Source: a virus. Taken from it: a stretch of DNA of 64,000 bases. The DNA is taken from the IMG/VR virus record IMGVR_UViG_3300010400_000002, positions 1 to 64,000 of that record; one strand, written 5' to 3'. Position numbers and translations under genes: made by a program. Below, piece after piece: positions 4,197-51,318 of this stretch (the first letter of the stretch is position 1; the number at the start of each line of letters is the position of its first letter). Below the pieces are notes generated by a model. The model did no database searches and was not told the DNA's origin. It worked only from the letters and a program-made list of their open reading frames with translations.

Positions 4197-4209
4197 TACC
4201 TTCACCGCT

Positions 4210-4488
4210 ATGAATAGAAAAACTTTTCTCCAATCAATACTCTCTCTCGTAGCATTGCAAGTGTTGAAACCAATTCGGTCACTGTATAGCGAATCAAATT
4301 TATTCAGAGGATATGAGGAAGGGAAAACGTATCCATATTTTCCGCCGAATCTAATATGTGGCTATCGCTTTAAAACCTATGAAGGTGATAATACTGTTTG
4401 GTATGCTATGGGTGAATTAGAGTTTGAAAATAATATTTGGGAACCTGATGAAATAGAAGTTGTTGGAACTTACGCCTACCTAAAATAA
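4210..4488 (+). CDS. Hypothetical protein with N-terminal signal-like sequence
   Basis: MNRKTFLQSILSLVAL resembles a Tat-like leader; lies between terL and portal. Confidence 0.5.
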   Translation: MNRKTFLQSILSLVALQVLKPIRSLYSESNLFRGYEEGKTYPYFPPNLICGYRFKTYEGDNTVWYAMGELEFENNIWEPDEIEVVGTYAYLK

Positions 4489-4493
4489 TCTCA

Positions 4494-23800: not shown

Positions 23801-24974
23801 TATGTTGCGCATCAATCAGATTCGCGCTATCAGCACTGCCGATGGTGAACCTATAGGTACCGGAGTGACGGAAGTGTGGCAGAAGCCGGATGAAAGGAGC
23901 ACCATACACGGAACGGTTTATCCGTATGGAACTATCAATACCGACAAAGCAATCTATTGGGCTGACTACTACAATAAATGCTTCTGCCGTTTTGCCCAAG
24001 ACGGAGTTACCAATATCAGTGATGACTGTGAGATCAAAGAACTGTCGTATGAGCTTCTGAAATTTTTCGATAGTGAGCAGCCGTTAAGTTTGAGTGGCTA
24101 TCAGCACGTAGCGGCGGGATGGGATAGTGTGCGCAACATGATCTACTGGACTGCGACGGAGCAACATGGGCTTGTGCAGGTGAAGAAAACATTAGCGTAC
24201 AGCGCCAATCCGCACGTACATTCTTTCGTGGCAGAAATGGATTTCTACCCTAAGATTTATCTCAACTGCAAAGGATGGTTACTGGATTCAAGATACATTG
24301 ATGATGGCGGCGATGCTACTACACTGTGGTCACACTACACAGGCGAACGCGGAAAATATCATGGTAGTTACAGGCACACAAAAATTGCGTTCATCGTAAA
24401 TGATGTAGCCAATGTGGACAAACTATTTGATAACTCATGGGCTTCATTCAATCCTGATGCGTACGCGTTGCTTGAAAAACTCACGCTCACTACCGATACG
24501 CAGTCGGCAATCATTACACCTATAAATGGAGATTTACGCAGTGATTACCGCAATCTCATCTTCCGCAATGAAACAGTGGCGCGTCCTGCACCCGACAACT
24601 GCGACTACACAATCAATGTAGGTACACCAACATTTCCGTTGAACAATTTCACTTACGTGAAGAACGGTAATACTGTGGTGATAGCGCAGGTCGTGAATCA
24701 GGTTGCATTGCAGGCATTCTTTGTAGCACAAGGATTTGTTGACACCTATCCGATATTCACAATCACGCAAACACCTGATACGTGGACTTCAATTACATGG
24801 AATGGACTGGTTGCTCCGATACTGTTTACACAGTCTGGTTGCGTGTCACCGATACAAAATCATTTGAGTGGTAAGTACCTGATGACAGAATATGATTTCT
24901 TAAATGCAGACAATAAAATCATTCAGTTCACAAGTTGCGATCAAAGTTTTAGATTGATTCCTAAAGTCAGATAA
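20865..24974 (+). CDS. Tail muzzle / stabilisation protein (P22 gp10-like position)
   Basis: 1369 aa; NTFTLGMRQD...YRSALNG N-terminus, VWGGDCY, IYWADYY; TTG start abutting the previous stop. Confidence 0.75.
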   Translation: MPFKKNIATNTFTLGMRQDRTVFAQDRRSYRSALNGNIIFSGAGDAQYCNEPGTTLLDNSVPDGYYIVGSKEIRDKTVIMSTNDTFSEIGLLELDVTGTVATYTTLFNDEFDPNGDKLNFASQDFIFPAESCFETIDKNRVYWLEPNNEPRCFNTRLGDQEVSPEFIDGSYTPLIATGKYPHFYSVHSMSLQADFKMGRLKLKNTTAGGSLKTGMYELCYRPVTRDGYAPPWTPLTRHFFVTLDPTIPDPLTNYHYRSMYASNVMTNKGYTFTIHGVDTRFYQLEVAYVYSTDKDVTQEASIFYREKIDPALTDVDVVFSSTTGIAVSFAEFNRYIVPIRRGKAIGQKDKRLWVGAPETYGPFELDLSGVTIAPFIREMTVDTREGATTLPLTNMSPTSNGTISIESYKNNVGAAVNESYAVIDDFPNYKGVQGEHLLASYWGGETYPLSVVVFDLKGNPFYAQHIIDYTFPNRYDDPSYHLMTTIDGKINIMGMKISGIDLTDILYDADGKLQVSGIAICRGKRIPQTLFQGVILPATIEDNPDATHPIEHTSNDFHGAGAGFADSLKYWGGASIGQQINSRPYTSMIYAPDILFGRNIYEGTSQDDVNEETDQLELVSLYDCPFQDSIYPRTIDLNPGLSGGIDGLEKFYTKNYELNVDNKNFEYGSKSRIKRLLTIETFKEQDTEWDHYDQDDPDLFFTDDSNFDPQDASGFPNMHSRGVTLSWLIKNKDFKNTTYMPSDTTGVNIDRPRYYTVNYKINNEKYFTSPTQKSLAERLYIGTGHFQPINQDVLDDIVDSDGRYILNDVEVWGGDCYPWIFEFVRNYPAFSGDCSEGDYAIAHVVPLESSMNFALRRGRSFGGDGIRSEHEACNPPPAAQYFPNGIMEGQPEEFNLNSVVMHEGNVQMFIAKPEVIDPEITQFDYRWLYSNLKIFGEITDQYRTFLTSNYGDMEPNYGRIVGRGYLFEQMYCLQERAFSMLRINQIRAISTADGEPIGTGVTEVWQKPDERSTIHGTVYPYGTINTDKAIYWADYYNKCFCRFAQDGVTNISDDCEIKELSYELLKFFDSEQPLSLSGYQHVAAGWDSVRNMIYWTATEQHGLVQVKKTLAYSANPHVHSFVAEMDFYPKIYLNCKGWLLDSRYIDDGGDATTLWSHYTGERGKYHGSYRHTKIAFIVNDVANVDKLFDNSWASFNPDAYALLEKLTLTTDTQSAIITPINGDLRSDYRNLIFRNETVARPAPDNCDYTINVGTPTFPLNNFTYVKNGNTVVIAQVVNQVALQAFFVAQGFVDTYPIFTITQTPDTWTSITWNGLVAPILFTQSGCVSPIQNHLSGKYLMTEYDFLNADNKIIQFTSCDQSFRLIPKVR

Positions 24975-26713: not shown

Positions 26714-28045
26714 ATGCCAGATTTTGCTTTGTATGATTCTTTAAATGTTGCTCCTCACTTCGATGTGAGGCGGCGCGATGCTATGGCAAACCTGACTATT
26801 GCCAAGCAGATGAAAGATGATGCCATTGCACAGATGCAGGAGCGCATGAAAGCAATGGCATCAATAAGCGATGCACTCAATGAAACTACCGATGCAGAGA
26901 AAACATTTCTTGATCCCGATGCAGAAAGATTGAAGGCAAAAGAAAATGAGATCAGGAGAAAGAATATCATTGAACCATTACAATCAAATAATAATGATGC
27001 GCTGATGTTTGAGATGAGCGGAGGTGATGCGTTCAAAAAAAAATATCACCGTGAGTTGGTTGGTAGTGAAGAATTCAGGAATGGTGTAGAGAATGCACAG
27101 AACTATAAGTTAGGAGTAGCAGCTACTATGAAAGGAGAAATCCTTTCTCCTGTGGAAGTGGAATTCCCGGGTGGGACAAAACAAACTGTTCCGTGGCATG
27201 ACGCTGTTGACCTCTACAATCAGAAGGTGATTAAAAAACTTCCTTTCAAGTCCAGTGCGCCACTTGCTGAATTCGATCCGCTTGACTTCATGAAATTTGA
27301 AATCCCTGATGCTGACATGAAGCACAAAGGATTTGTGGGACTGAAGTATCTCGCTGATCGGATACAGGCAGGAAATCCGAAACTCAACCTAACTGATGAG
27401 CAGGCGATGGAGCAGGCGAAGTTGTATCAGAATAAAGATGTGCAGGGTGCTTCTATGTTTACGTGGGGAAGGAGGTTGCCACACAGTTCGGGATTAAGTT
27501 CCTTCTATGCAAAGCAGGGTGAGCAGCAGCAAAATACATTGCAACGCTATCAGTATTTAAAGCAGGGAATAAAAACCAATCCTGCATTGATAGGACAGAT
27601 TGTGATGAATCAACCATATAACGGAGGTATCATTACCGGCTTTAAAATTCATCCACAAGGTGTTCCCATTAAAGCAATAGGAACAAATAAAATGTTCACG
27701 CCATCCAGCCCAATTGCCTTGATAGAATACACTACTAAAAATAAACATGGAAATTTCATAAAAGAACAAGACGAGATACGATTAACAAAGGAGAATGATT
27801 ATGGTTTCCAGTTGTTCAACAAACTCGCAAACATTAATCGTGAAGGAACAGCGCAGTTCGTAAATCCTGAAGAACTGAATGCTATCTACCAAAGTGATCC
27901 TGAATATTTTGGTGGTGGAAGTACACCGCAGCAAACAGCAACAAAATCAAATGCTCAATATACAGCCACAATGCCTGATGGCTCATTAATTTATTCTCTT
28001 GATGGTCAAAGTTGGGTAGATGAAAAAGGAAATCCTGTACAATAA
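26714..28045 (+). CDS. Cargo/ejection protein
   Basis: 443-aa helical protein; synteny. Confidence 0.5.
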   Translation: MPDFALYDSLNVAPHFDVRRRDAMANLTIAKQMKDDAIAQMQERMKAMASISDALNETTDAEKTFLDPDAERLKAKENEIRRKNIIEPLQSNNNDALMFEMSGGDAFKKKYHRELVGSEEFRNGVENAQNYKLGVAATMKGEILSPVEVEFPGGTKQTVPWHDAVDLYNQKVIKKLPFKSSAPLAEFDPLDFMKFEIPDADMKHKGFVGLKYLADRIQAGNPKLNLTDEQAMEQAKLYQNKDVQGASMFTWGRRLPHSSGLSSFYAKQGEQQQNTLQRYQYLKQGIKTNPALIGQIVMNQPYNGGIITGFKIHPQGVPIKAIGTNKMFTPSSPIALIEYTTKNKHGNFIKEQDEIRLTKENDYGFQLFNKLANINREGTAQFVNPEELNAIYQSDPEYFGGGSTPQQTATKSNAQYTATMPDGSLIYSLDGQSWVDEKGNPVQ

Positions 28046-31000
28046 TGCCAAATGGACAAGATATAAAATTACCAAAGGGAGCGACACTTGTTACTTCGCC
28101 TCCTGTGTCCGGCATTAAATTACCGAAAGGTGCAACGCTTATAAATAATAAATCCGATGAATCACAAGCGAAAGTGCCGCAAGTGCAAGAAGAAAAAAAT
28201 GGTGTAAATGCGCAACCAACAGACGCTACGGCAGCGAATAGCACTACGGAAGTACCGCAAAAAGAAAATAACAGCATTCCAAAAAATTTGGACAATCACA
28301 TTAAGGCGCTTCAAAATGTTAAACAGAATATTAGCATCTACTCGCAATCAATTCCAAAGAATGCTCCATTAACATTACCTACCAAAGAACAAGAGGCGCA
28401 GATAGAACCTGCAATTGTAGCAAGCGGAGGAAGAAATGCTACAATAGAGGATGATGGAAATATTATTGACTATAGTAAGCCAAACCAAATTACTCAGTGG
28501 GCACAATCGCAACTTGAAAAATTAAATGCGATTCCTGCATTTGATGGAACACCAACCGGAATGGGTATTCCTGATGTTACACCAATTACACCAATTATTG
28601 TTGCTGGTAAAGAAGTTGCAAAATCAATACTTGGAAGTATAAGCGGACTGGGCGAAGGAATTCAGCAGGCAACAAAAGGAAGTGAGGATATAAGAATACC
28701 ATCTTCACAAAATAGATTAGCTGCATTGGAACTTCCGGCAGGATTAGTAAAATCAGGATTTAGCGGATTAAGTTTGGTGGTGCCGCAAGTTGCTGCATTT
28801 AATCTTGGAATACAGGAAGCGGGAAATGTACTTCCTGAAAAATGGGTGCAAGCAGCGATGTCACCCGTGTCAACTATTTTGCAAGAAACACATGGCATAG
28901 TAAACTTCAATGGTAAAATTTATGATCTCGGAAATAGCGATGGAGTAAAGGCTGCTGCTGAATTAACTGACCTTGTATGGGATATATTTTTATTCAAGAA
29001 AGCGGAAGGGTTGGGTAAAAAGATAATTCATAATGAAGTTCTCACTCCTATTGAACAAGCTGAGGCGAATAAGATTATTGATGAAGGTATCAAAGATTTT
29101 GGAACACCATTCAAGAAAGAAACTTTAAATAAAATTCCTCCTGAATTACCGGATGCAGTAAAGATAAAAGTTGCTCCATTGATTGAGGAGAAAGAAAAAA
29201 TAATTGATGGAAAGCAAAATATTGATGTTGGATTACATCAGTTAGAAGATCAAAAAATTGCTGACATCAATGAACAAATAATTGACCACGTTGCGCCACA
29301 ACCATTTACTGTTTCTGAATTTGAAGTTCACCCAAAAGAAAACATCTCTGCTGTTGTTGGTAAAGATGCTGAATACAAAGGAAAGATCGGTGTGATCGAA
29401 AAAGACGATGAAGGCAATTTTGTTTTCAATGATGGCAAACGACAACAGATACTTCCGGTAGAAAATAAAGTAGAGCCGACAGAAACAATTTCCGACTCGG
29501 GATTGACAGTAGCCAAAGAGAAAATTTTCAAAGGAGAAATTCCGGTAATCGTGAAGCAAGGTGATGTTGAATATCGTAACAGGAAATACTTTGTATCGTT
29601 CACCAATGATCCGAAAGATGCAACAGGAACGAGAGTATATGAATATACTAAGGACAAAAATTTACTTCCTGTTGGCAAGCCTAAAAAAGTCAATGAAATA
29701 ATTCAACAGTTCAAAGACGAGAATGGAATTGCAACGAAGCAATCACCATTTGAATTTCCGAAGTCAAAAGAAGGAGAACCAACAATCTCAGAGGGTGACG
29801 GGACTGCTAAAGGGGAGTTGCAAGTTCCGTTATCCTCTGAACCTAAAACGACCGACAATGTTTCCGACAAACCACCAGTGTCAGATGAGCGACAACAGGA
29901 GTCAGCACCAATCGGTGAAGCTCCCAGTGCCGAAACCGTCGTTAGCGAAGAGGTTAAAGCGCCGGAGGAAAAAGTAGATGAAGCCAAACAGTTCGCTATT
30001 GACATGGTGAACAATGATCTTGTTGAGCCAGGGAATACTTCTCGAAGTGAAATGACAATCAAGGGTAGTGGCAAGAAAGCAAGTGCGAACATCGAACCAC
30101 GACTTGACTTAGGAATGAGTAGTGCCGATAAGAACAAAGCTATTGCTGACATCAAAAAAGGAAACTACGAAACAGCACCAGCTAAGAAGTTAATTCAAAA
30201 GTTAAGTGAGTTCCATAAGAATGATGCGTTTGAGATGATACGCGGAACGGGTGGTAATGCTGATCGGTTTATGGAACTGACGCTCGAAGAAATGCGTCAT
30301 CAGATTGAGGACATGAAAGAATTCAAGGCAGCCGAAGCCATGAAGGGAATACCGGATGAAGAAGCGCAGGCGATAGAAGATTTTGTCAGACCTTTTGAAG
30401 ATGAGCATGGAAACATTAATTTTGAGGAAGCGATAAAACATCTTGATGAAATCGGATGGACATTACCTGAAGGACATGAGGAAAGAATTTCGGACTTAAT
30501 CAAAAAAATAAAAGATGAAACAGGAAAGCGAGAAGTCCAAAAAGGCGAAGCAAATTCTTCTGGGTCTGTTAGCAGCGAAGCGCCGGAAGGAGTCATCAAA
30601 GATGAAAAGCCCCGCACAAGAGAACAAATCCTCCAAGAGTTAGAGCAGGCTAAAGCGGAGCACGCTACCGCAGAGAGTGACTACAACAAAGCCAAAGATG
30701 CTCTCGACAAAAATCTACAAGGCAAGCAGGGTGATTTACTACAAGGTAATGAGCAGAAGTTGTTTGATGACACTTCTGAAATGAAGTCCAAAGCGGATGC
30801 AGCTAAGAAAACTCTTGACGCTGCAAAAGAAAAACTCGATGCCGCACAGAAGTTGGCTGATGATAATTTACCAGGGCAACAGGAGATACTTAGTCTTTCA
30901 CATGGACTCACCCCTGAGCAAATAAATGAAAGTGCCCAATTCGTTGTTAAGTTTGAACGGGATGAATTACCTACCGATATAAAACTTGCAAAAGAACAAC

Positions 31001-34000
31001 AAGAAAAAGCGTTTGGTCGCGATAAAGAATCTTACAATGAAAAAATTAAGTATTTAGAAGATCGGCTTAAATATCTATCTGATCAGAAAAATTTTGATGC
31101 TGAGGTCGAGAAAATAAAAAGCAAGTATGATCAACCAACTTCCTTAGAACACGAAGCTAAGAATCTCGCTGATAAAATTCGCGGACTGAAAGGAAAACCA
31201 CTAATGGTTCGTGATTCTGTCACTGGTGAAATGGTGGAAGTAAAATCAAAATCATTCTTTGATGAAGCCATTGACATAGTTGCTAACCTCATTGAGAAAG
31301 CAGGCAAGGAACTGAATCACACAAAACTTGGTGATGCAATTGTCGCGGGACTAAAGCATATCCGCTCTTCTGAGTGGTACAAGAAACTTAAATTCTCCGA
31401 AAAGCAGGGTGTGATAAAAGAATTCAAAGCGATGTTTGCTCCGATGCAGGAAGCATTAGTGAAGGGAAGGAAGGAAGATTTGAAGAAGCGAACAGAGAAC
31501 ACTACCGGACAGCGTGACCTTTCTGAAAAAATTAAGACCACGGCGCGACGCATATTCCGACAGAATGAAATTTCATTCAAGCGTGGTGTGGGCGCAGAGA
31601 GAAAGGGACAGTCAATACAGCGCAAAGAATTCGCTGCGGCAATCGCTGACCTACTAAAGTCAAACCAGCTAAAAGGTGAAATAACTCCAGCACAATTCAA
31701 GACTATTATTAAAGCCGCTACCAACATTGGCACAGAAGCGCAACTCAATCGTTTCCTCACATTTTCCGACCGTGTTATCAGTGATGCTAACTATGCACAG
31801 CGCATATCTGACATCTCTGCCACAAGAAAGAAACTTGGCTCACGCGATTATGGTACGTTGACAAATACTGTCAAGTCATTTCTTGCTATCAACCCGCGCA
31901 GTGTTCCTCTCGACAAACTGGATTTGTATGAGCGTGTGATAAATGGGCTTGCACAGAAGCGTGTTCCGTCAGCAACAGAGCTGGTACGCAACTACAATGA
32001 GATTGCAGATGCAGTGCAGAGCAAAACATTTCCGTCTGAAGGTAAGTCGTATAATGATATTGAAGATGGACTTGCCGAACTCACACAGGCGAAATTTGAT
32101 AATGTTGATGACTACATAAAAGCACGTCAGCAATTAGCAGCACTCAATCGGGGGTTACAGAAACTAATTAATGAGGGAAGCATAACACCGGAAGAATCGG
32201 CACAGGCGCAAGACCTGTTTATGCAGACTGGAAAAACATTGGAAGAGCATGCAGCAGAAAATCTTCTTGCCGAAGAAGTGAAACTGAAAGATGAAATGAT
32301 TACAGAAGCGAAAATGATTGCTTCAAATCAGGAGCTTGCCGATTTCACGCCGGAGCAGAAGAAATACATTGAGAAGTTTCAGTCAATTCCTGAATCACTA
32401 CTAAAGCAAATGCCGATTGAAGATGTAGATGCTTATGTGAAGGTGATGGATGGACTGGATGATGGGTTGGTGAATAGTAAAATGTATGAGTTGCTGAATA
32501 AAGCAGGGCTGATGAAAGCCACCAACGAAATCAAAGGACAGGTGCTCGATCAGGCGATCAACAAAACCGGAAAGGCAATAAAGGTATTAGGACAGAAAAT
32601 AGAAGTACCTAATCCGAAGAAACTATTTGGTGATCTAACTACAAGAGGGAAATATTTCTGGGATGAATACTTTGGACTGGGTGGGCAGAAGCCGATATGG
32701 AAAACAATAGTAAGCCCAATCCTTCGCGCCTACAATCACATGCAGTTGGATGCAATTAGGTTGCGGAGTGAATATCATACAGCGTCCAAAAAAGTAAACA
32801 GTGTTGATAAAGCCAAAATATCTATTGTGCTGAATCAACTCGACTACCAAAGTAACCCTATTCGTCTTGAAGATAAAACGGTGCATGACTTTGCCGATCT
32901 TCCAAATCAGGAGAAAGATTATTTCAAAGTGATAAACAATCCTGACAATGCGATGCTCGGACTCAACAATGTCCGTATCGCCGATCAGAAGATTGCGCGT
33001 GAAGCGTATACTGAATTACCAAAGGACTCTTATGGCAACATTGACACGCAGAAGGCACTCGATGAATTGAATGGTGATCCTGACATAAAAGCGTTACTCG
33101 ATACTGTTCAAAAAATAAAAGATGCGCTGGAAGATAAGAACCGTGTAGCAACGGAAAAGCGTGGTGATGTATATGTACCGCGCGAAAATTATCATCCTCG
33201 CATGGTGCGACAGTCACGACCTCGTGGAGGGCTATTCGATACCGAACCACTTACGGCGGAACAGGCAGTAGAATCATTACTCGGTAAGCCTGTAAATAAT
33301 GTGACAGCAAGGGCAGGCTCTACTCATGCACGTACCGACTACCGCTACTATGTTTCTTACAACCTTGACCATGTAATCGGTAACCACATTCAGGATGTGT
33401 TGCGTGATTACCATTTGGGTGATCCCATGAAGCAAAGGTTGGGAGCACTTGGCTCGCTGATGCTATCACAGACGGGAGGAAAGCAAGCAACAGCGAGGGC
33501 ACTGTATGAAGCGATGAAAGATGGTGTGGTGACTTCATTTCATCTCGACAATAAAGTTGCGAATGATGATATGAAGCTGATTGAAAAAGTTCTCTCCACT
33601 ACACGAACACTTGCACTTGCGCGACCTACTCGCTTGATAAATGACTTCGCCTCCAACTTCGTGAGAGAAACATTATCAAGCGGTCAGATTAATCCGGGAC
33701 GACACGAAGCATATAAGCAACTGCTCGACAATTCATATTCATCATTGATGTTTAAAGCGGGCAAGTACGCTGAAGAACGGTATGAAACAAATCAGGGTGC
33801 AATGCGTAAACTCGCTGATGCTATCATTCCGTTTGCTGATACACCGGTTACTCGTGCTGCATTTGCCGGAGCATTCGACACGAGATTCGAAACACTCACA
33901 GGAGAGCGATTTAATCCAGACGAGTATGTTAAATCAGAAGCGTATCGTGATAAATTCGCTGCACAGATTGATGATGCCTCATCCCATGCTGAAGCCTCCA

Positions 34001-35151
34001 TGTCGCAGAAGTTCAATGCTCAAACACCTTTTGCGGCTGCTTCAAAAACGAAATGGACACCACTTGGTTCGCCGAAAGAAAAATATAGTCTGATCTCACA
34101 GGCGCTTGGATTTCTGAATTCATGGAATGCAAATGATACTCGTAATCTTCTTACTAAAGCAAAACAATTGTATGATGGCTCAGGAACGGGGCGTATGGAT
34201 GCGCTCAGAGATATTTCTGGTGTGTTAGCATCTAACTATGTTTACACCACGACTGCTATTCTTGTAGCTAACATCATCAAAAATGGAATTGCTTCAGCAC
34301 TCGATGATGATGAAAAAGGATGGTGGCAGGAGTTGGGTGATGATTTTGAAAAAGGATTTTCAGACACTTTCAATACAGAGACGCAAGGTGAAGTTGGTGT
34401 AGGTACGGTGCTGTCACTTGCTATGGGGCGTTACGGAAATTTGTTCCGTGGAATGTATGCACTCATATCAGGTATTCTCGCCAACGGTCTTAAGGATAAT
34501 CCGGCAGCACTGTCGAAACTCGATGCTGTTAATGGTGGCATGACGCGCACATTCTATGCTGATCCTATAAAGAGCGATAGTCGAACAGTGGATATGTTGC
34601 GACTTATCCCGGCTATGGGAGAAATAGCTGCACAAGTTTATCAAGGTAGTTCCTCAGCAATAGCCTTAACAAACAAGGTGGCTAATGATGGCTTTGAATC
34701 TCTCAACGCTTCTGATAAAGATTTATGGACTACGATTCAGGCTACAAATTATCTGATCGGCGCCGCTTTTCCAAATCCTATCTCTCCTGAGTTTCATACG
34801 GAGTCACGACGCATTGCATCTGCTGTCATTCAGGATGAAAAGAATGATCGTATGAGAGCAATCGGTGTGTACGACATTTATGAAAAGGCAAAAGCCAATG
34901 AACTTATTCCACCCATTGCGCCAAATACCGTTACTATTGATGGAGAGAAACGAACACTGACTTACAAGGAACATGAAGAATTTAATGACCTTGTGATGAA
35001 GTACCGGAAAGAATGGGTTGATGACCTTCGCAAAAATGATCCTGAATTTAAGAAGGCACCACAGAAAGAAAAGATCAAAATGATTAAATCAGCTTACGCG
35101 AGTGGATATAATGAGGCTAAAGATGAATTTTTTAACACAGAAGAAAAATAA
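28045..35151 (+). CDS. Very large virion-associated (ejection/polyvalent) protein
   Basis: 2368 aa, mostly helical/coiled-coil, in the cargo locus; no RNA-polymerase catalytic motif recognised. Confidence 0.6.
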   Translation: MPNGQDIKLPKGATLVTSPPVSGIKLPKGATLINNKSDESQAKVPQVQEEKNGVNAQPTDATAANSTTEVPQKENNSIPKNLDNHIKALQNVKQNISIYSQSIPKNAPLTLPTKEQEAQIEPAIVASGGRNATIEDDGNIIDYSKPNQITQWAQSQLEKLNAIPAFDGTPTGMGIPDVTPITPIIVAGKEVAKSILGSISGLGEGIQQATKGSEDIRIPSSQNRLAALELPAGLVKSGFSGLSLVVPQVAAFNLGIQEAGNVLPEKWVQAAMSPVSTILQETHGIVNFNGKIYDLGNSDGVKAAAELTDLVWDIFLFKKAEGLGKKIIHNEVLTPIEQAEANKIIDEGIKDFGTPFKKETLNKIPPELPDAVKIKVAPLIEEKEKIIDGKQNIDVGLHQLEDQKIADINEQIIDHVAPQPFTVSEFEVHPKENISAVVGKDAEYKGKIGVIEKDDEGNFVFNDGKRQQILPVENKVEPTETISDSGLTVAKEKIFKGEIPVIVKQGDVEYRNRKYFVSFTNDPKDATGTRVYEYTKDKNLLPVGKPKKVNEIIQQFKDENGIATKQSPFEFPKSKEGEPTISEGDGTAKGELQVPLSSEPKTTDNVSDKPPVSDERQQESAPIGEAPSAETVVSEEVKAPEEKVDEAKQFAIDMVNNDLVEPGNTSRSEMTIKGSGKKASANIEPRLDLGMSSADKNKAIADIKKGNYETAPAKKLIQKLSEFHKNDAFEMIRGTGGNADRFMELTLEEMRHQIEDMKEFKAAEAMKGIPDEEAQAIEDFVRPFEDEHGNINFEEAIKHLDEIGWTLPEGHEERISDLIKKIKDETGKREVQKGEANSSGSVSSEAPEGVIKDEKPRTREQILQELEQAKAEHATAESDYNKAKDALDKNLQGKQGDLLQGNEQKLFDDTSEMKSKADAAKKTLDAAKEKLDAAQKLADDNLPGQQEILSLSHGLTPEQINESAQFVVKFERDELPTDIKLAKEQQEKAFGRDKESYNEKIKYLEDRLKYLSDQKNFDAEVEKIKSKYDQPTSLEHEAKNLADKIRGLKGKPLMVRDSVTGEMVEVKSKSFFDEAIDIVANLIEKAGKELNHTKLGDAIVAGLKHIRSSEWYKKLKFSEKQGVIKEFKAMFAPMQEALVKGRKEDLKKRTENTTGQRDLSEKIKTTARRIFRQNEISFKRGVGAERKGQSIQRKEFAAAIADLLKSNQLKGEITPAQFKTIIKAATNIGTEAQLNRFLTFSDRVISDANYAQRISDISATRKKLGSRDYGTLTNTVKSFLAINPRSVPLDKLDLYERVINGLAQKRVPSATELVRNYNEIADAVQSKTFPSEGKSYNDIEDGLAELTQAKFDNVDDYIKARQQLAALNRGLQKLINEGSITPEESAQAQDLFMQTGKTLEEHAAENLLAEEVKLKDEMITEAKMIASNQELADFTPEQKKYIEKFQSIPESLLKQMPIEDVDAYVKVMDGLDDGLVNSKMYELLNKAGLMKATNEIKGQVLDQAINKTGKAIKVLGQKIEVPNPKKLFGDLTTRGKYFWDEYFGLGGQKPIWKTIVSPILRAYNHMQLDAIRLRSEYHTASKKVNSVDKAKISIVLNQLDYQSNPIRLEDKTVHDFADLPNQEKDYFKVINNPDNAMLGLNNVRIADQKIAREAYTELPKDSYGNIDTQKALDELNGDPDIKALLDTVQKIKDALEDKNRVATEKRGDVYVPRENYHPRMVRQSRPRGGLFDTEPLTAEQAVESLLGKPVNNVTARAGSTHARTDYRYYVSYNLDHVIGNHIQDVLRDYHLGDPMKQRLGALGSLMLSQTGGKQATARALYEAMKDGVVTSFHLDNKVANDDMKLIEKVLSTTRTLALARPTRLINDFASNFVRETLSSGQINPGRHEAYKQLLDNSYSSLMFKAGKYAEERYETNQGAMRKLADAIIPFADTPVTRAAFAGAFDTRFETLTGERFNPDEYVKSEAYRDKFAAQIDDASSHAEASMSQKFNAQTPFAAASKTKWTPLGSPKEKYSLISQALGFLNSWNANDTRNLLTKAKQLYDGSGTGRMDALRDISGVLASNYVYTTTAILVANIIKNGIASALDDDEKGWWQELGDDFEKGFSDTFNTETQGEVGVGTVLSLAMGRYGNLFRGMYALISGILANGLKDNPAALSKLDAVNGGMTRTFYADPIKSDSRTVDMLRLIPAMGEIAAQVYQGSSSAIALTNKVANDGFESLNASDKDLWTTIQATNYLIGAAFPNPISPEFHTESRRIASAVIQDEKNDRMRAIGVYDIYEKAKANELIPPIAPNTVTIDGEKRTLTYKEHEEFNDLVMKYRKEWVDDLRKNDPEFKKAPQKEKIKMIKSAYASGYNEAKDEFFNTEEK

Positions 35152-46051: not shown

Positions 46052-46453
46052 ATGGAGGAAGATCACTTAGAAGCAGCCGCGGCAGAAGAGAAATTTTCAT
46101 TCGATCTTCTTTTGGCAGTGTTTCAGAAGTTGCCGGATGCGATAGTTATCCTTAATGAGGACAGAAAGATATTCAGGGTAAACCCACAGGCAGAGCTATT
46201 GTTTGGGTATAATGAAATAGAATTAAAAAATAAACCCATTGAAATTCTTGTACCGGACTCACTGAAAGAACGCCACACTACGCATACTCAAACCTATGTA
46301 GATTCACCCTCATTACGTGCGATGGGAAGCGGTATTGAGTTGAAGGCAAAGAGAAAAAACGGAACAGAAATTCCTGTTGAAATAAATCTTAGTCCTGTGT
46401 CTACGGTTCGTGGTTTGTATGTGATTGCTGTAATCAGAAGAAAAGTAAAATAA
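46052..46453 (+). CDS. Stand-alone PAS domain (S-box) protein, FixL-like
   Basis: LPDAIVILNEDRKIFRVNPQAELLFGY...EILVP...RH...RAMGSGIELKAKRKNGTEIPVEINLSP. Confidence 0.9.
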   Translation: MEEDHLEAAAAEEKFSFDLLLAVFQKLPDAIVILNEDRKIFRVNPQAELLFGYNEIELKNKPIEILVPDSLKERHTTHTQTYVDSPSLRAMGSGIELKAKRKNGTEIPVEINLSPVSTVRGLYVIAVIRRKVK

Positions 46454-47115: not shown

Positions 47116-47487
47116 ATGGAGAAAGAAAACATCATCATTCACGTTCACAATGAAGGAATCATTGAGATAGGAATGATGTTGCAGAAGATTCTCCACTCAC
47201 AAGAAATTATTCTTCAAACTCTAAAACAAATTCAAATGACAAACGAAGAACTCAAAAAAGGACTCGATGATGTAAAAGCTACTCTCGACAGTATCGGTAC
47301 AGAGGTTGACAAAGTTGCAACCGAAACCAACACATTGAATTCAAAGATCGCTGATCTCGAAACTCAAATCGGGAATCTCGGTACTGTACCACAAGAATTA
47401 CAGGATGCTTTCAATGCGGTAAAAGATCAAGCCGGTGTTGTTGCATCTAAGGTTCAGGCGGTGGATGCTCTTGTGCCTGACGCGTAA
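47116..47487 (+). CDS. Coiled-coil protein
   Basis: Heptad-rich; last gene of the + strand block. Confidence 0.6.
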   Translation: MEKENIIIHVHNEGIIEIGMMLQKILHSQEIILQTLKQIQMTNEELKKGLDDVKATLDSIGTEVDKVATETNTLNSKIADLETQIGNLGTVPQELQDAFNAVKDQAGVVASKVQAVDALVPDA

Positions 47488-47514
47488 AGATTGTGTGTGT
47501 ATGTGTTTAGGAGA

Positions 47515-47546
47515 GCGGGGTGGCAAATCAGCACCCCGTTTTTTAT
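47515..47546 (+). terminator. Intrinsic terminator of the late (+) block
   Basis: CGGGGTG-loop-CACCCCG followed by TTTTTT. Confidence 0.85.
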
Positions 47547-47608
47547 TGAGGCAACTCAATCTGAAAGAGAAGTTTCTTTTGCTTCGGCGCAGTATCAATT
47601 CGGGGGGC

Positions 47609-47641
47609 AAAAAAAATGGATGATGTTTAGTCACCCATTTT
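47609..47641 (-). terminator. Intrinsic terminator ending the RAMP-array transcript
   Basis: On -: AAAAUGGGUGA-CUAAACA-UCAUCCA-U8; the G-U pair and U8 tract work only on the - strand. Confidence 0.8.
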
Positions 47642-48241
47642 AAACAGTACCATAGCGGTGCGAACCCAACCATGCCAGCGCCTAACAGAACCATATCCAA
47701 CAATACCGAGCCTTACACGATCACACCATACCGGCTTTCCAGCCCGTTCCATGCCATACCTCTACTTACATCAGCCAACCATACAGGACTAAAGCAAGCC
47801 ATTGCTAACCTATCCCGACCATACCGACTCTTTCGAGTCCGTACCCAACCGAACCATACCGAACACAAGCGAACCGCGCCGACGCCGAAGCTAACAATAC
47901 CATTCCCGATACTACCGCGCTCGACATAAGCTGACCAATCCATACCAAACCGGAGATAATTTTCCCGTTCCTTACCATACTCAACCGAACATTACCTAAG
48001 CCAGCCGTACCCTGCATAACCGAAGCTGACCGAACCGACTGAAATTAATCAGTCCGTACCACGCCGTACACTACCATTCCAAACAAAATTGAACCGTATC
48101 CCGCCATGCCGAATCGAACCTTACCACAACACACGGAACACCACCATGCACTACCATACCGGCTTTTAAAAAGCCCGCACCAAACCAAAACTCAGCTAAC
48201 CGGACAAAACCGAACTCCACATAACCCCGCCCCGGCAAACC
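47642..48241 (-). ncRNA. GGY-NN pentamer array: six putative guide-RNA units separated by five hairpins
   Basis: About 104 in-register pentamers (55 exact GGT/GGC by manual count; two 6-nt units); hairpins at 47733-47744, 47826-47839, 47952-47965, 48037-48054, 48161-48175. Confidence 0.85.
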
Positions 48242-48246
48242 GGAAT

Positions 48247-48873
48247 TTAATCTTCAATGACATCATAATTCTTAATAGCAAATCTTCCATATGACGGTCT
48301 GAAATCTCCAACGCCGCACAATCTTCCTGCCTGTACCAACGTGTCAATAAACAATGCCACATCAATATACTCAGGCAACTGAATCATGAATTGACATTTG
48401 CAAGTCCATCCTGATTTTAATGCAGGACGAGTGCGATTAATGCCTGACCGCTGAATAACAACACGCCGACGATCTTCATAATCCCATTCTTTCTTTCCTA
48501 AAGAGCAAAGTGGAGTTAATGAGATTACTCCTGCTTTGAATAAGTCCATTGCCGACTTACGAGGCGAGCGAGGGTCTTGTTTGAACTTTGATGCAGCGAT
48601 ACAACTCATGCGAAAATATTCACCCGGGATACAGAGAAATCCTTTATCATCCCGATAGACGTAGCTTTCGAGATCATCAGTTTTTTTAGCAGCAGAATTT
48701 TTTTTCGCTTTCGCTTTTTCATCTACTGCCTCTGCATTCCATCGGTGAAACAGCATGTCGGCTGTACCTTGAAATGTTACTTCAATCATGAACGGTTCTG
48801 AATGTTCAATGACTTTCTTTGCGCCGTTTGTTGGCTCACTCACATTCTTAGCGAGTGTTTTTGCTGTACTCAT
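48247..48873 (-). CDS. Stand-alone RAMP/Cas7-like RNA-binding protein
   Basis: IEVTFQGTADMLFH (beta-1), LCIPGEYFRMSC (cf. IPGSSLKG of Csm3/Cmr4-type RAMPs), RTRP, C-terminal Gly-rich loop AGRLCGVGDFRPSYGRF. Confidence 0.8.
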   Translation of the reverse strand: MSTAKTLAKNVSEPTNGAKKVIEHSEPFMIEVTFQGTADMLFHRWNAEAVDEKAKAKKNSAAKKTDDLESYVYRDDKGFLCIPGEYFRMSCIAASKFKQDPRSPRKSAMDLFKAGVISLTPLCSLGKKEWDYEDRRRVVIQRSGINRTRPALKSGWTCKCQFMIQLPEYIDVALFIDTLVQAGRLCGVGDFRPSYGRFAIKNYDVIED

Positions 48874-48889
48874 AATTATGAAATTAAAA

Positions 48890-48991
48890 AGCCCCTACGA
48901 CAAATGGTTCAAACCTTCACCGTTAGGAGAAAGTACATCTGCTTTCAGGGCTGTTTGGAAATGTCGTGATTGACACGATGAAAGTTTGAAC
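48890..48991 (-). promoter_or_regulatory. Structured 5' leader of the RAMP gene
   Basis: 16-bp stem GUUCAAACUUUCAUCG/CGGUGAAGGUUUGAAC plus alternative pairings AGCCCU/GGGGCU and ACGACA/UGUCGU. Confidence 0.7.
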
Positions 48992-48995
48992 GAGG

Positions 48996-49028
48996 CAAAT
49001 ATAAGGTGAGGGTATTACTAAATGCAAA
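48996..49028 (-). promoter_or_regulatory. Bacteroidota primary-sigma promoter for the RAMP-array unit
   Basis: TTTG (49028-49025), 21-nt spacer, TATATTTG (49003-48996); matches TTTG-N19-21-TAnnTTTG. Confidence 0.75.
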
Positions 49029-49135
49029 TCAGGATATAAACATTCGATTCACATAAATTGTCCTTTGTCAATCCATAGTGGCTTGTCGCCGTTCATCATG
49101 GAAAGATACTTCTGCTTAATTTTTTTGGCTCTCAT

Positions 49136-49732
49136 TTATATTTCAATTGAGTTATTCACTTCATTGCCTAATAAATCCCATCCCTCATATTCATAATTAG
49201 GGAACATTCCTTCACGTTCCCTTGCGAATAACTCCAATCGTTTAGGCTCTTCGAAAACCCTGTCAGTGACCTTCATTATCAATTCGCGGAAGTAATGCGG
49301 TTTCTGTGAGTGCTTACCAACTTTCTGTTCGTGAAGATCACCGAAGTCAAATTCCGAAGCATAGAAATTACAGGTTTGTTCTCTGAAGGCAGTAACATTT
49401 CCTTTAATTCCTAATAGCAGATGTTCGCATTGACCACGAAACCAATATCCCATTCCCTGACTCATTACCTTTCGCCACGTCATCATTGTCTTATACTTAA
49501 ATCCCCACGCAGCCATTACCTCAAAGGCTTCCGGCAATAGCGGAACGGTTGCCCCTAAGAACAACACCGAATTTTTCTCAGAAGGAATTTGCATTGCCTT
49601 GATATCATCAAGCGGCATCGTTTCATATTTTGTATGAGCGCCACTTCCTTCCGGCTGATCTCCATTAGTTCGCCCTGTCTTTTTATTCTCGTAAGACCAC
49701 GGCGGATCTGCGTAAATGACATTGTACTTCAT
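49136..49732 (-). CDS. MT-A70 family adenine methyltransferase
   Basis: YNVIYADPPW, AWGFKY, MGYWFRGQCEHLLLG, HSQKP, LELFAR. Confidence 0.9.
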   Translation of the reverse strand: MKYNVIYADPPWSYENKKTGRTNGDQPEGSGAHTKYETMPLDDIKAMQIPSEKNSVLFLGATVPLLPEAFEVMAAWGFKYKTMMTWRKVMSQGMGYWFRGQCEHLLLGIKGNVTAFREQTCNFYASEFDFGDLHEQKVGKHSQKPHYFRELIMKVTDRVFEEPKRLELFAREREGMFPNYEYEGWDLLGNEVNNSIEI

Positions 49733-49948: not shown

Positions 49949-50686
49949 CTAACACACTTTCTTCTGAACATGAATACCATAAGAGTCCGTTATTTTATGG
50001 CATGGCTTACATAATGTTAATCCGTTATCCACATCCCATAATAACTTACAGGAAAGAGCATCAATAGTGTCCTTCAAATTGAATTGATAGATAATATTTG
50101 CTAAACTTATTTTATGATGGCATTCCAACCTAACATTATTTTTACCACAGTTTTGGCAAGTGAAATTATCTCTCTTATAAACACTCAATCTCCATTGATT
50201 ATATTCAACCAATCTTCTTATCTTATCTTTAATAATATTAAACCCTTTTCCCTTCCCATATCTCCAATGATTCGTTCCGCTAATTCTAAGCCTCGCTTCT
50301 AAAGTATACTTTTTGTTTCGGGTGAACGCCTTTCCTTTCATAAAGGCACTGTGCGCTGGTCTCTGTCTACCTAATTTAAAAACATGATAGCATTGTTGAG
50401 AACAGAATTTTCTTTTTAGTGATTTGGAAAATTTAATATCTCTATTACAGATGGAGCATTTTGATTTCACCTTTCCTTTTCCAAAATCATTAGTCATACA
50501 TATGACGTCACAATATATCCGCTTACATTTCTTTTTACAGTACCTACAATTATTTAGAATAGTTATCTTTCTTTTTCTTCTTTTTCTTATTCTTGAGCAT
50601 GTTTCCGAACAAGTTGTTCTGTTATTAAGTTGACATGGAAATACTTTGAATGGTGCATTACAAACAATACAGTTCTTAGTAATCAT
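49949..50686 (-). CDS. HNH endonuclease with N-terminal Cys-rich zinc-finger repeats
   Basis: WRLSVYKRDNFTCQNCG...LECHH...NGLTLCKPCH; true start likely MITKNC at 50686. Confidence 0.85.
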   Translation of the reverse strand: MITKNCIVCNAPFKVFPCQLNNRTTCSETCSRIRKRRKRKITILNNCRYCKKKCKRIYCDVICMTNDFGKGKVKSKCSICNRDIKFSKSLKRKFCSQQCYHVFKLGRQRPAHSAFMKGKAFTRNKKYTLEARLRISGTNHWRYGKGKGFNIIKDKIRRLVEYNQWRLSVYKRDNFTCQNCGKNNVRLECHHKISLANIIYQFNLKDTIDALSCKLLWDVDNGLTLCKPCHKITDSYGIHVQKKVC

Positions 50687-50699
50687 CTTAAAAAAGATA

Positions 50700-50813
50700 G
50701 CCGCTGGCAATGGTGGCTTATCAACACAATCCGTAGGGAAGGAGTTGCACCAAAGCAGCGGCGTTTTTTGTTGAAGATGTTCATGGATTGAATTGATAAG
50801 CATTGCAAATTTA
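50700..50813 (-). promoter_or_regulatory. Promoter plus structured leader of the HNH gene
   Basis: TAAATTTG (50813-50806); long stem GCUUAUCAAUUCAAUCC/GGAUUGUGUUGAUAAGC; alternative pairing GCCGCUG/CAGCGGC. Confidence 0.65.
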
Positions 50814-50814
50814 A

Positions 50815-51318
50815 TTAAACTTCTTTTATTTCAATTTTATTAATTGCAAACATCAACTTCTTCTTCAGTCGGTAAACTGCTAACTTCCTTGTCATCTTCG
50901 ACTTTACATCTTCAACAACCTTAACTCCTTTCTCAAAATAACTGAAGTCACTCCGATAATAGCACACCTGTTGACCATTGATTATTAGCGGAAATTCTTC
51001 CTGTAACTGCAAATCCGTAATCTCACGATTCTTCTGCATATCGGATAGAATCAAGTAACGGCGGTACTCTTTCTCCGAATCGAATTTCAATCCTTCTTTG
51101 GTGACTACCTTCTTGTTTCGGTACTTGGGTAATTTCTTTGATTCCTGCACCCTTGCTTTAACGCTGTCAGGCGACTTCGCTTTGGAGATAGCAGCGGTGG
51201 GTTTGGGGCTTGCGTGGCTCAGAGGGCTTGTTTTGACGTTCTTTCTGTCCAACAAGATTTCATCGAGGGATTTGCCCTTGTGGTATTGGTGATACTCTTC
51301 AACCGACAACACTGTCAT
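50815..51318 (-). CDS. DUF1064-family PD-(D/E)xK endonuclease
   Basis: KYRNKKV...FDSEKEYRRY...LQLQEEF...YRSDFSY...VVEDVKS...YRLKKKL. Confidence 0.85.
   Translation of the reverse strand: MTVLSVEEYHQYHKGKSLDEILLDRKNVKTSPLSHASPKPTAAISKAKSPDSVKARVQESKKLPKYRNKKVVTKEGLKFDSEKEYRRYLILSDMQKNREITDLQLQEEFPLIINGQQVCYYRSDFSYFEKGVKVVEDVKSKMTRKLAVYRLKKKLMFAINKIEIKEV

What the first reader, a model, noticed from the sequence alone, without database searches (positions are those of the whole stretch)
47609..49028. Minimal phage RNA-guided system: lone RAMP/Cas7-like gene plus a GGY-NN pentamer array in one transcription unit
Seen: on the - strand, in order, a TTTG-N21-TATATTTG promoter, a structured leader, a 208-aa ORF, a ~600-nt non-coding array starting 5 nt after the stop, and a U8 intrinsic terminator. 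Known: the protein carries RAMP hallmarks found in Cas7/Csm3/Cmr4 backbone subunits (beta-1, IPG helix motif, C-terminal Gly-rich loop GVGDFRPSYGRF), and these subunits polymerise along guide RNA at a fixed nucleotide step. No cas1/2/3/5/6/8/10 gene or repeat-spacer CRISPR array is recognisable in the window. Inference: the protein coats RNA cut from the array at one subunit per pentamer, gripping the constant GGY and displaying the variable NN for target recognition, probably against competing phages or host genes. From memory, which I cannot verify here, a similar architecture has recently been reported as VIPR; this should be checked before claiming novelty.
Basis: partly seen in the sequence, partly recalled or inferred. 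Interest (0 to 1): 0.97.

Follow-up and report, generated by a model that had tools for sequence, protein, structure and literature searches.

The report
VIPR RNA-guided system in soil crAss-like phage
This is a real but already described kind of phage RNA-guided silencing system (VIPR, first reported in 2026): one Cas7-like protein plus an array of five-base repeats, and two of its guides read as antisense copies of conserved motifs in genes of rival mobile elements.

Summary
On the minus strand, 47609-49028 carries a promoter-like site, a folded leader, a 208-aa ORF, a ~600-nt array with a strict 5-nt register, and a hairpin plus T8.

The array's register score is 20 sd above dinucleotide shuffles. 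It is the only such array in the complete 78-kb phage genome.

The protein is a Vipr:
- Its family profile matches the solved SUSP1 Vipr structure over nearly the full length (E 2e-18).
- The AlphaFold2 model (pLDDT 94) is Csm3/Cas7-like.
- All SUSP1 residues that hold the GGY bases are kept or conservatively replaced.
- 54 of 60 related loci carry a same-strand pentamer array beside the gene.

So this is a member of the VIPR family published in 2026, not a new kind of system.

Features specific to this locus:
- The phage is a soil crAss-like phage.
- No vap gene is present.
- The array lies downstream only and is divided by short covarying hairpins into six tracts.
- About 45% of the pentamers are degenerate.
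- Tract 1 is the antisense of codon positions 1-2 of the DUF2188 C-terminus (27/28).
- Tract 3 is the antisense of the HExxH site of a Bacteroidota HTH-M78 (ImmA/IrrE-like) protein (up to 25/28).

Other readers of this scan noted the same stretch of this genome and supplied the decoding lead. Expression and binding are untested.

The parts
48996..49028 (-). Promoter-like site TTTG-N21-TATATTTG (Bacteroidota -33/-7 type)
   Evidence: Exact match, but 5 matches in the window against 3.1 expected, so a consensus match only. The type is plausible because the phage is crAss-like.
48874..48995 (-). 5' leader with a long imperfect hairpin
   Evidence: MFE -29.5 kcal/mol, z = -2.7 against shuffles. 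No pentamer array and no Rfam family.
48247..48873 (-). vipr gene, 208 aa (stop codon 48247-48249)
   Evidence: phmmer to PDB 36pp 'SUSP1 Vipr protein' E 3e-5; family profile E 2e-18 over nearly the full length. AF2 pLDDT 94.4. Foldseek top hits are Csm3/Cas7. GGY-contact residues are conserved.
48177..48246 (-). Guide tract 1, 14 pentamers; antisense of the last 14 codons of DUF2188 genes
   Evidence: A 9-unit core gave 51 IMG/VR hits, 50 of them in frame at '...SYGNDPYPPKG*'. The full guide matches 20-27 of 28 positions. Pfam DUF2188 E 1e-18 to 3e-28.
48161..48175 (-). Junction hairpin J1 (6-bp stem, loop of 3; outer stem extends it to 48157-48180)
   Evidence: -11.3 kcal/mol, z = -3.3.
48056..48160 (-). 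Guide tract 2, 21 pentamers; target not found
   Evidence: Register parse. A 9-unit seed gave 0 IMG/VR hits.
48037..48054 (-). Junction hairpin J2 (6-bp stem, loop of 6)
   Evidence: -11.8 kcal/mol, z = -3.8.
47967..48036 (-). Guide tract 3, 14 pentamers; antisense of the HExxH region of a Bacteroidota HTH + Peptidase_M78 protein
   Evidence: 24/28 in three related IMG/VR contigs, in frame over 'SLMHELYHVLYDLE'. Pfam Peptidase_M78. 21-25/28 in Pontibacter and Hymenobacter plasmid homologues found by protein homology.
47952..47966 (-). Junction J3, weak hairpin in register
   Evidence: Shares the flanks of the other junctions, but its fold is not better than shuffles.
47841..47951 (-). Guide tract 4, 14 + 8 pentamers with a 1-nt register shift at 47881; target not found
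47826..47839 (-). Junction hairpin J4 (5-bp stem, GAAA loop)
   Evidence: -12.4 kcal/mol, z = -5.2.
47746..47825 (-). Guide tract 5, 16 pentamers; target not found
   Evidence: Three seeds gave only chance-level matches.
47733..47744 (-). Junction hairpin J5 (4-bp stem, GGAA loop)
   Evidence: -8.8 kcal/mol, z = -2.9.
47647..47732 (-). Guide tract 6, 11 + 6 pentamers with a 1-nt shift at 47677; target not found
47609..47641 (-). Terminator-like hairpin plus T8
   Evidence: 11-bp stem, z = -2.6. T8 at 47609-47616. The simple scanner did not list it.

Best explanation
This is a VIPR (Viral Interference Programmable Repeat) locus of a complete 78-kb crAss-like phage from soil.

Shown here:
- The 208-aa protein is a Vipr, a minimal single-RRM RAMP homologous to SUSP1 Vipr.
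- The downstream ~600 nt are a vrRNA array of GGY/NN pentamers.
- Tracts 1 and 3 obey the published 1-nt-skip rule against genes of other mobile elements. Tract 1 matches the last 14 codons of DUF2188 genes. Tract 3 matches the zinc-site motif of an HTH-M78 (ImmA/IrrE-like) regulator or protease found on Bacteroidota plasmids and proviruses.
- The phage itself carries neither gene.

Inferred from the solved homologue: one Vipr protomer binds each pentamer. It buries G1, G2 and Y3 through H43, R149, D190, F191, R192, E85 and C186, and exposes N4 and N5. The exposed dinucleotides pair with target DNA while every third target base is skipped.

Inferred, not shown:
- The gene and array form one transcript.
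- The transcript is cut or bounded at the short hairpins, giving six guides of 14-22 units.
- Binding represses transcription of the target.
- Because each guide reads only codon positions 1-2 of a conserved motif, it should tolerate synonymous drift and reach many family members.
For: Protein:
- PDB 36pp SUSP1 Vipr, E 3e-5 for the single sequence and 2e-18 for the family profile.
- AF2 model pLDDT 94.4 / pTM 0.86.
- Csm3 and type VII Cas7 are the best folds, E ~1e-7, TM 0.5-0.56.
- SUSP1 H17, E71, R138, C173, D177 and R179 are identical here, with W178 replaced by F and M72 by Y. The functional roles of these residues come from 10.64898/2026.04.26.720927.

Array: z = 20 for the 5-nt register, and unique in the genome.

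Linkage: 54 of 60 related loci have a same-strand array within 1.5 kb of the gene.

Targets:
- Tract 1 matches 27/28 on DUF2188 C-termini, with 50 of 51 seed hits in frame.
- Tract 3 matches 24-25/28 on HTH-M78 genes, including a Hymenobacter plasmid reached by protein homology rather than by pattern.
- There is no self-target and no DUF2188 or M78 gene in the phage.
- NN composition fits 'reverse complement of codon positions 1-2' best of six models.

Context: a viral record with terminal repeats, a Crass_capsid match, and no cas genes or CRISPR repeats.
Against: - No RNA data exist for this phage, so transcription, processing, RNP formation and silencing are untested.
- Only 55% of pentamers carry GG, fewer than in most relatives and in SUSP1 vrRNA1.
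- The ~40-nt pseudoknotted tail of SUSP1 vrRNAs is absent. Short hairpins stand in its place, and their exact flanking motif was not found in ~80 related loci.
- No vap gene is present.
- Targets for tracts 2, 4, 5 and 6 were not found.
- The two identified targets lie on different elements, and neither element is known to co-occur with this phage.
- The promoter and terminator are predictions only.
Confidence: 0.93

Rival explanations
1. A decaying or inactive VIPR relic. The array has drifted (45% of pentamers lack GG, two 1-nt register slips, no canonical tail) and no longer makes working guides.
For: 68 of 124 pentamers have GG. Register shifts occur at 47881 and 47677. Targets are missing for four tracts.
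Against: In tracts 1 and 3 every degenerate pentamer still carries target-matching NN, which drift would erase; the seed for tract 1 included 5 degenerate units and still hit DUF2188 51 times. Y at position 3 is kept in 105 of 124 units. The ORF is intact with all contact residues. SUSP1 vrRNAs also contain degenerate units.
Confidence: 0.04
2. An RNA-targeting variant. The guides are antisense to coding sequence, so the complex binds mRNA, as type III Cas7 filaments do, rather than double-stranded DNA.
For: Both identified targets are antisense to the coding strand. 7 of 8 sub-tracts fit the antisense codon model better than the sense model. The nearest solved CRISPR folds are the RNA-binding Csm3 proteins.
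Against: The solved homologue binds dsDNA as a triplex and silences from either strand. The antisense compositional signal is modest and may reflect scaffold constraints on N4 and N5, which are G-poor. Only two targets are identified.
Confidence: 0.07
3. The pentamer tract is a DNA-level element (protein-binding repeats or a replication or packaging signal), or an accidental G/T-rich repeat, unrelated to the upstream gene.
For: No expression data. The whole tract does not fold better than shuffles, z = -1.4.
Against: Strand-specific linkage to the gene holds in 54 of 60 loci, with only 5 opposite-strand runs in 313 kb. Homologous arrays are transcribed and co-purify with Vipr. The NN bases decode two conserved protein motifs. 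Weak global folding is expected for a protein-coated RNA.
Confidence: 0.02

Closest known systems
VIPR type II of Escherichia phage SUSP1 (Vipr + vap1 + four vrRNAs; bioRxiv 10.64898/2026.04.26.720920 and 10.64898/2026.04.26.720927; PDB 36pp)
   Same: Homologous Vipr protein (profile E 2e-18, 25% identity, same GGY-contact residues). GGY/NN pentamer arrays on the gene's strand. Degenerate units occur inside the guides. Guides follow the 1-nt-skip rule, with the skipped base on the codon wobble position. Targets are genes of other mobile elements. Phage-borne and without cas genes.
   Different: No vap1 gene here or in the close clade. The array lies downstream only, with six contiguous tracts (SUSP1 has one vrRNA upstream and three downstream). 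Tracts are separated by 12-19-nt covarying hairpins, not by ~40-nt pseudoknotted tails plus conserved 5' flanks. GG occupancy is lower. The host phylum is probably Bacteroidota and the phage is crAss-like.
Other published VIPR array architectures (staggered arrays, hammerhead-interspersed arrays, single vrRNA; types I and III-VII)
   Same: Head-to-tail guides with no long spacer resemble the 'staggered' description. Seven types but only six vap genes implies that vap-less loci are already catalogued.
   Different: No hammerhead or other Rfam family is present. The type could not be assigned because the paper's figures and data tables are not held.
Cas7 backbone subunits of class 1 CRISPR-Cas (Csm3/Cmr4, type VII Cas7)
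   Same: RRM core, thumb hairpin and glycine-rich loop. One subunit binds per fixed step of guide RNA (for the comparison).
   Different: 5-nt rather than 6-nt step. No match to the Pfam RAMPs model. No cas1, cas2, other cas genes or repeat-spacer array. Sequence identity to Csm3 chains is 8-15%.

Membership tests
VIPR | Vipr protein: a minimal RAMP (RRM core, thumb, G-loop) homologous to described Viprs | tested here: met
   PDB 36pp SUSP1 Vipr, E 3e-5 (single sequence) and 2e-18 (profile, nearly full length). AF2 pLDDT 94.4 with a beta-hairpin thumb at 132-152 and a G-loop at 187-197. Csm3/Cas7 are the top folds.
VIPR | Residues that hold G1, G2 and Y3 (SUSP1 H17, R138, D177, W178, R179, E71, C173) | tested here: met
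   They map to H43, R149, D190, F191, R192, E85 and C186. R149, D190 and R192 are nearly invariant in 67 family members.
VIPR | Adjacent same-strand tandem GGYNN (YNNGG) pentamers, at least 4 units | tested here: met
   124 in-register units, z = 20. 54 of 60 related loci show the same linkage.
VIPR | Constant GGY with hypervariable NN | tested here: met
   Within the array, positions 1-3 are G 73%, G 73% and Y 85%, while positions 4-5 use all bases.
VIPR | vrRNA made of 9-16 repeats followed by a conserved structured 3' tail | tested here: inconclusive
   Tracts of 14-22 units are bounded by short covarying hairpins. No ~40-nt tail like SUSP1's is present. RNA ends are unknown.
VIPR | Targets found by NN-x-NN (1-nt skip) matching, with the skipped base on the codon wobble position | tested here: met
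   Tract 1 matches 27/28 on DUF2188. Tract 3 matches 24-25/28 on HTH-M78. Both are in frame with the skip at codon position 3. Four tracts remain unresolved.
VIPR | vap accessory gene next to vipr (typical, not universal) | tested here: not met
   There is no ORF between vipr and the array. No vap1 homologue exists in the genome or in ~80 clade loci, and no neighbour gene is conserved.
VIPR | Viral or proviral context without cas genes or a CRISPR array | tested here: met
   Complete viral record with terminal repeats and a Crass_capsid match. No Cas1, Cas2 or RAMPs model match and no CRISPR-like repeats.
VIPR | vrRNAs are expressed, co-purify with Vipr and repress matching DNA | not testable with these tools
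   Only the source DNA metagenome holds this sequence.
CRISPR-Cas class 1 (Cas7/Csm3) | RAMP fold | tested here: met
   Foldseek E ~1e-7 to Csm3 and type VII Cas7.
CRISPR-Cas class 1 (Cas7/Csm3) | Partner cas genes and a repeat-spacer array | tested here: not met

The most novel reading that the evidence does not exclude
This may be a vap-less VIPR sub-architecture in a soil crAss-like phage, made of one polycistronic array cut at minimal covarying hairpins. Even pentamers that keep only the Y of GGY would present working NN bases. The guides would be built as antisense copies of codon positions 1-2 of highly conserved protein motifs (the DUF2188 C-terminus and the HExxH site of an HTH-M78 protein), so that one guide covers a whole gene family across hosts. 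If so, DUF2188 and HTH-M78 modules on Bacteroidota mobile elements would be functions the phage needs to silence, either competitor regulators or anti-phage defences. The consistent antisense orientation could also mean action on mRNA.
Probability: 0.3. Interest if true: 0.6.

Novelty: new member of a known kind. Interest (0 to 1): 0.42.

Why it matters
The locus adds nothing categorically new, because VIPR was described in 2026 from 667 representative systems.

It is a clean natural example outside the studied E. coli and Pseudomonas systems, in a crAss-like phage whose host is probably a soil Bacteroidota.

Two points are useful to people working on VIPR:
- Pentamers lacking GG still carry target information, which bears on how vrRNAs should be called and on how strict scaffold recognition really is.
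- The decoded guides name concrete, testable targets. DUF2188 has no known function but is widespread on plasmids and prophages. The HTH-M78 protein is ImmA/IrrE-like. Both point to genes that matter in conflicts between mobile elements.

Tried and rejected
- Pfam gave no family for the protein. PHROGs gave only an unnamed family, phrog_4652.
- Rfam with permissive thresholds gave no hammerhead or other family in 47300-49300.
- Guides were first scanned in the sense orientation. Canonical-only patterns of tracts 3 and 5 in IMG/VR gave a 24-25/28 match of tract 3 in a capsid-like ORF of four related contigs. I rejected it as chance. About one or two seed families are expected for 18 fixed bases, assuming a collection of order 1e10-1e11 positions (my estimate, not measured). 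The skipped base falls on codon position 1, and no other tract converges there.
- Seeds for tract 5 and tract 2 gave nothing beyond chance.
- No guide matches the phage's own genome or the 22 related loci held at that point (L001-L023) above shuffled-guide nulls.
- In five complete or partial records carrying a tract 1 or tract 3 target, the guides do not converge on one element.
- HNH (49949-50803) and MT-A70 (49136-49732) were considered as possible vap genes and rejected, because nothing next to vipr is conserved across relatives.
- No RNA holder was listed for this sequence; only the source soil DNA run holds it.
- The profile alignment was too diverse for the genome-contig scan. The single-protein scan found one MAG.
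- The VIPR type (I-VII) could not be assigned, because the paper's figures and data files are not held.
Full report
**What is in the sequence**

On the minus strand, 48247-48873 is an intact 208-aa ORF. From the first base after its stop codon (48246) to about 47647 the DNA keeps a 5-nt register.

- G autocorrelation is 0.27-0.35 at every multiple of 5.
- A dynamic-programming parse gives 124 in-phase pentamers. G occupies position 1 in 90, G occupies position 2 in 90, and a pyrimidine occupies position 3 in 105. Positions 4-5 use all four bases.
- The parse score is 20 sd above 200 dinucleotide-preserving shuffles, and the lag-5 autocorrelation is 9 sd above them.
- No other stretch of the 78,308-bp genome behaves this way, and neither do shuffles.
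- Only 68 of the 124 units have a full GG.

The flanking signals are weaker evidence:

- The TTTG-N21-TATATTTG site is at 48996-49028 as stated. Such sites are no commoner in the window than chance (5 against 3.1), so it stays a prediction.
- The 122-nt leader folds into a long hairpin (z = -2.7).
- The unit ends in an 11-bp hairpin and T8 at 47609-47616.
- The array as a whole folds no better than shuffles (z = -1.4). That fits an RNA meant to be coated by protein.

**The protein**

- Pfam finds nothing, and PHROGs finds only an unnamed family.
- The family is very large: 6,629 clusters at 90% identity and 1,056 representatives at 50%.
- The single sequence matches PDB 36pp, 'SUSP1 Vipr protein', at E 3e-5 through the glycine-rich loop.
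- A profile of 67 family members matches that chain over nearly its whole length at E 2e-18.
- The AlphaFold2 model is confident (pLDDT 94.4, pTM 0.86). It shows an RRM core, a beta-hairpin thumb at 132-152 and a G-loop at 187-197.
- Its best solved neighbours are Csm3 of type III-A and Cas7 of type VII, with E about 1e-7 and TM 0.5-0.56. That Foldseek library predates the Vipr entry.

I located the SUSP1 locus in NC_028808: vipr at 28474-29061, vap1 at 28031-28471, and arrays on both sides. After adding the SUSP1 protein to the family alignment, the residues that the cryo-EM paper assigns to G1, G2 and Y3 map as follows:

| SUSP1 Vipr | This protein |
|---|---|
| H17 | H43 |
| E71 | E85 |
| M72 | Y86 |
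| R138 | R149 |
| C173 | C186 |
| D177 | D190 |
| W178 | F191 |
| R179 | R192 |

D177 and R138 are the two positions whose alanine mutants abolish silencing, and both are identical here.

**Linkage of gene and array**

Across 60 related loci from IMG/VR and metagenomes (51-67% identity), 54 have a same-strand pentamer array within 1.5 kb of the gene. It lies upstream only in 36, downstream only in 8, and on both sides in 10. Several of the six loci without an array are cut at a contig end. Only 5 opposite-strand runs and 3 distant runs occur in 313 kb. The downstream-only layout of this window is a minority arrangement, but it is not unique.

**Comparison with the literature**

VIPR was reported in April 2026 (bioRxiv 10.64898/2026.04.26.720920; structures in 10.64898/2026.04.26.720927; phage-satellite biology in 10.64898/2026.10.15.759431). 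An independent language-model survey also recovered 5-nt arrays next to Vipr-like folds (10.64898/2026.10.21.760802). The published system has these properties:

- One Vipr protomer binds each pentamer.
- GGY is buried and NN is exposed.
- Double-stranded DNA is recognised with one skipped base per unit.
- The outcome is transcriptional silencing of competing mobile elements.
- The skipped base usually falls on the codon wobble position.

The locus here meets the tested defining features, so it is a member of a known kind and not a new system.

**How this locus differs**

- *No vap gene.* Vipr is followed directly by the array. SUSP1 vap1 has a homologue next to the Medea1 vipr (E 2e-13), but none in this genome or in about 80 clade loci. 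No neighbour gene is conserved across the clade. The paper lists seven types but only six vap genes, so vap-less loci are probably already catalogued.
- *Hairpin punctuation.* The array is divided by short hairpins with common flanks (GGWAC-G ... G-GTWYGG) and different, compensating stems. J1, J2, J4 and J5 fold with z from -2.9 to -5.2, and J3 is weak. SUSP1 vrRNAs instead end in a ~40-nt tail and have conserved 5' flanks. The exact junction motif was not found in the related loci. No hammerhead or other Rfam family is present.
- *Degenerate pentamers.* About 45% of the units lack GG.

**What the guides aim at**

Scanning the guides in the sense orientation gave only chance-level results.

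Notes from other first-stage readers of the same stretch suggested reading the reverse complement of the NN bases as codon positions 1-2. I tested that idea in three ways.

*1. Composition.* Of six codon-register models built from the phage's own ORFs, 'antisense positions 1-2' fits best. It scores +5.6 bits over background, the next best model scores -3.4, and sense positions 1-2 scores -22.3. Seven of eight sub-tracts prefer antisense to sense.

*2. Tract 1 (48246-48177).*
- A 9-unit core gave 51 exact IMG/VR hits, against the one or two I would expect by chance for 18 fixed bases. That expectation assumes a collection of order 1e10-1e11 positions, which I estimated and did not measure.
- Fifty of the hits lie in frame on the last codons ('...SYGNDPYPPKG', then stop) of 74-87-aa ORFs.
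- The full 14-unit guide matches 20-27 of 28 positions, with 27/28 in two complete proviruses.
- Four of these ORFs were checked and all are Pfam DUF2188, E 1e-18 to 3e-28.
- DUF2188 genes are common on plasmids of many phyla.

*3. Tract 3 (48036-47967).*
- It matches 24/28 in frame over 'SLMHELYHVLYDLE' of a 408-aa protein with a Peptidase_M78 (ImmA/IrrE-type) domain and a weak N-terminal HTH, in three related viral contigs.
- Homologues of that protein in PLSDB occur only in Bacteroidota (Hymenobacter, Pontibacter, Persicobacter, Bacteroides).
- In three homologues reached by protein homology, not by pattern, the guide matches 21, 22 and 25 of 28 at the same HExxH site. The Hymenobacter sp. 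BRD128 soil plasmid reads 'ALMHELYHVLYDW'.

In both tracts every degenerate pentamer matches its target, and the mismatches sit in the terminal units. Two conclusions follow: non-GG units still carry guide information, and the guide tracts fill the intervals between the hairpins.

The phage itself has no DUF2188 or M78 gene and no self-target.

Tracts 2, 4, 5 and 6 remain unassigned. The two targets do not sit on one element in the records I could read.

**Host and genome**

- The record is a complete viral genome with a 123-bp terminal repeat, 41.7% G+C, from a soil metagenome.
- Its major capsid protein matches Pfam Crass_capsid (E 1.8e-13).
- The ORF at 2217-4196 resembles the terminase large subunit of crAss-like phages.
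- A Bacteroidota host is therefore likely. That fits the promoter type and the Bacteroidota distribution of the tract 3 target.

**Mechanism and confidence**

I put 0.93 on this being a functional VIPR locus that works as the solved homologue does. Homology, conserved contact residues, the array, its linkage to the gene and two rule-conforming targets are shown. Transcription, processing at the hairpins, RNP assembly, DNA rather than RNA binding and silencing are inferred.

The rivals are each unlikely:
- a decaying relic (0.04);
- an mRNA-targeting variant (0.07);
- a DNA-level repeat unrelated to the gene (0.02).

**Verdict**

Its value lies in the particulars: a crAss-like soil phage, no vap gene, minimal hairpin punctuation, informative degenerate units, and guides written against conserved protein motifs.

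Noticed in passing
window 15444-16880 (+), 2217-4196 (+); whole genome: The phage is a distant crAss-like phage. The major capsid protein matches Pfam Crass_capsid (E 1.8e-13), and the ORF at 2217-4196 resembles the terminase large subunit of crAss-like phages at 23-37% identity. The genome is complete at 78,308 bp with a 123-bp direct terminal repeat, 41.7% G+C, from soil.
   Followed up: partly
window 46052-46453 (+): A 133-aa phage ORF consisting of a PAS domain alone (Pfam PAS, E 4e-13) lies among small membrane-like ORFs just downstream of the convergent VIPR unit. A PAS-only sensor domain is unusual in a phage.
   Followed up: no
window 49136-49732 (-), 49949-50803 (-), 50815-51318 (-): Upstream on the same strand are an MT-A70 adenine methyltransferase (E 5e-19), a Cys-rich 284-aa protein with a weak HNH_2 match, and a DUF1064 protein. 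None of them is linked to vipr in relatives.
   Followed up: partly
window 9295-10470 (+): A phage ORF matches Glyco_hydro_130 (E 4e-10), possibly a structural or depolymerase module.
   Followed up: no
window 20865-24974 (+) and 28045-35151 (+): Two very large ORFs of 1,369 and 2,368 aa. They were not searched against any family.
   Followed up: no
L206 2929-4661, L207 2974-4696, L208 2917-4757: In Bacteroidota plasmids the HTH-M78 gene targeted by tract 3 is always followed by a ~165-200-aa gene (a P63C domain in one case). It sits near toxin-antitoxin and recombinase genes (RES/Xre, Fic, integrase), so it may be a two-gene regulatory or defence module.
   Followed up: no
L007 3200-4000, L017 3460-4000, L012 2910-3180: Relatives show varied array layouts. 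Some have ~12-unit tracts with ~45-nt tails like SUSP1. Others have nearly continuous arrays of 270-480 nt with few interruptions. Arrays lie upstream of vipr in most loci.
   Followed up: partly
L001 (Phage DSL-LC04, OR003939) 3998-4615: The GenBank record annotates the Vipr homologue (65% identical) as a 'helix-turn-helix transcriptional regulator', which appears to be a misannotation. A ~300-nt pentamer array lies directly upstream.
   Followed up: partly
L089 (SUSP1) 28474-29061: The cryo-EM preprint names 'T175' as a Y3-pocket residue, but the RefSeq SUSP1 protein has V at position 175 (C173-G-V-G-D177). This is probably a slip in the text or a construct difference.
   Followed up: no
window 47490-47600: A G+C-rich hairpin followed by a T-run lies after the convergent + strand gene (47116-47487). 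The VIPR unit therefore ends in a convergent terminator zone.
   Followed up: no
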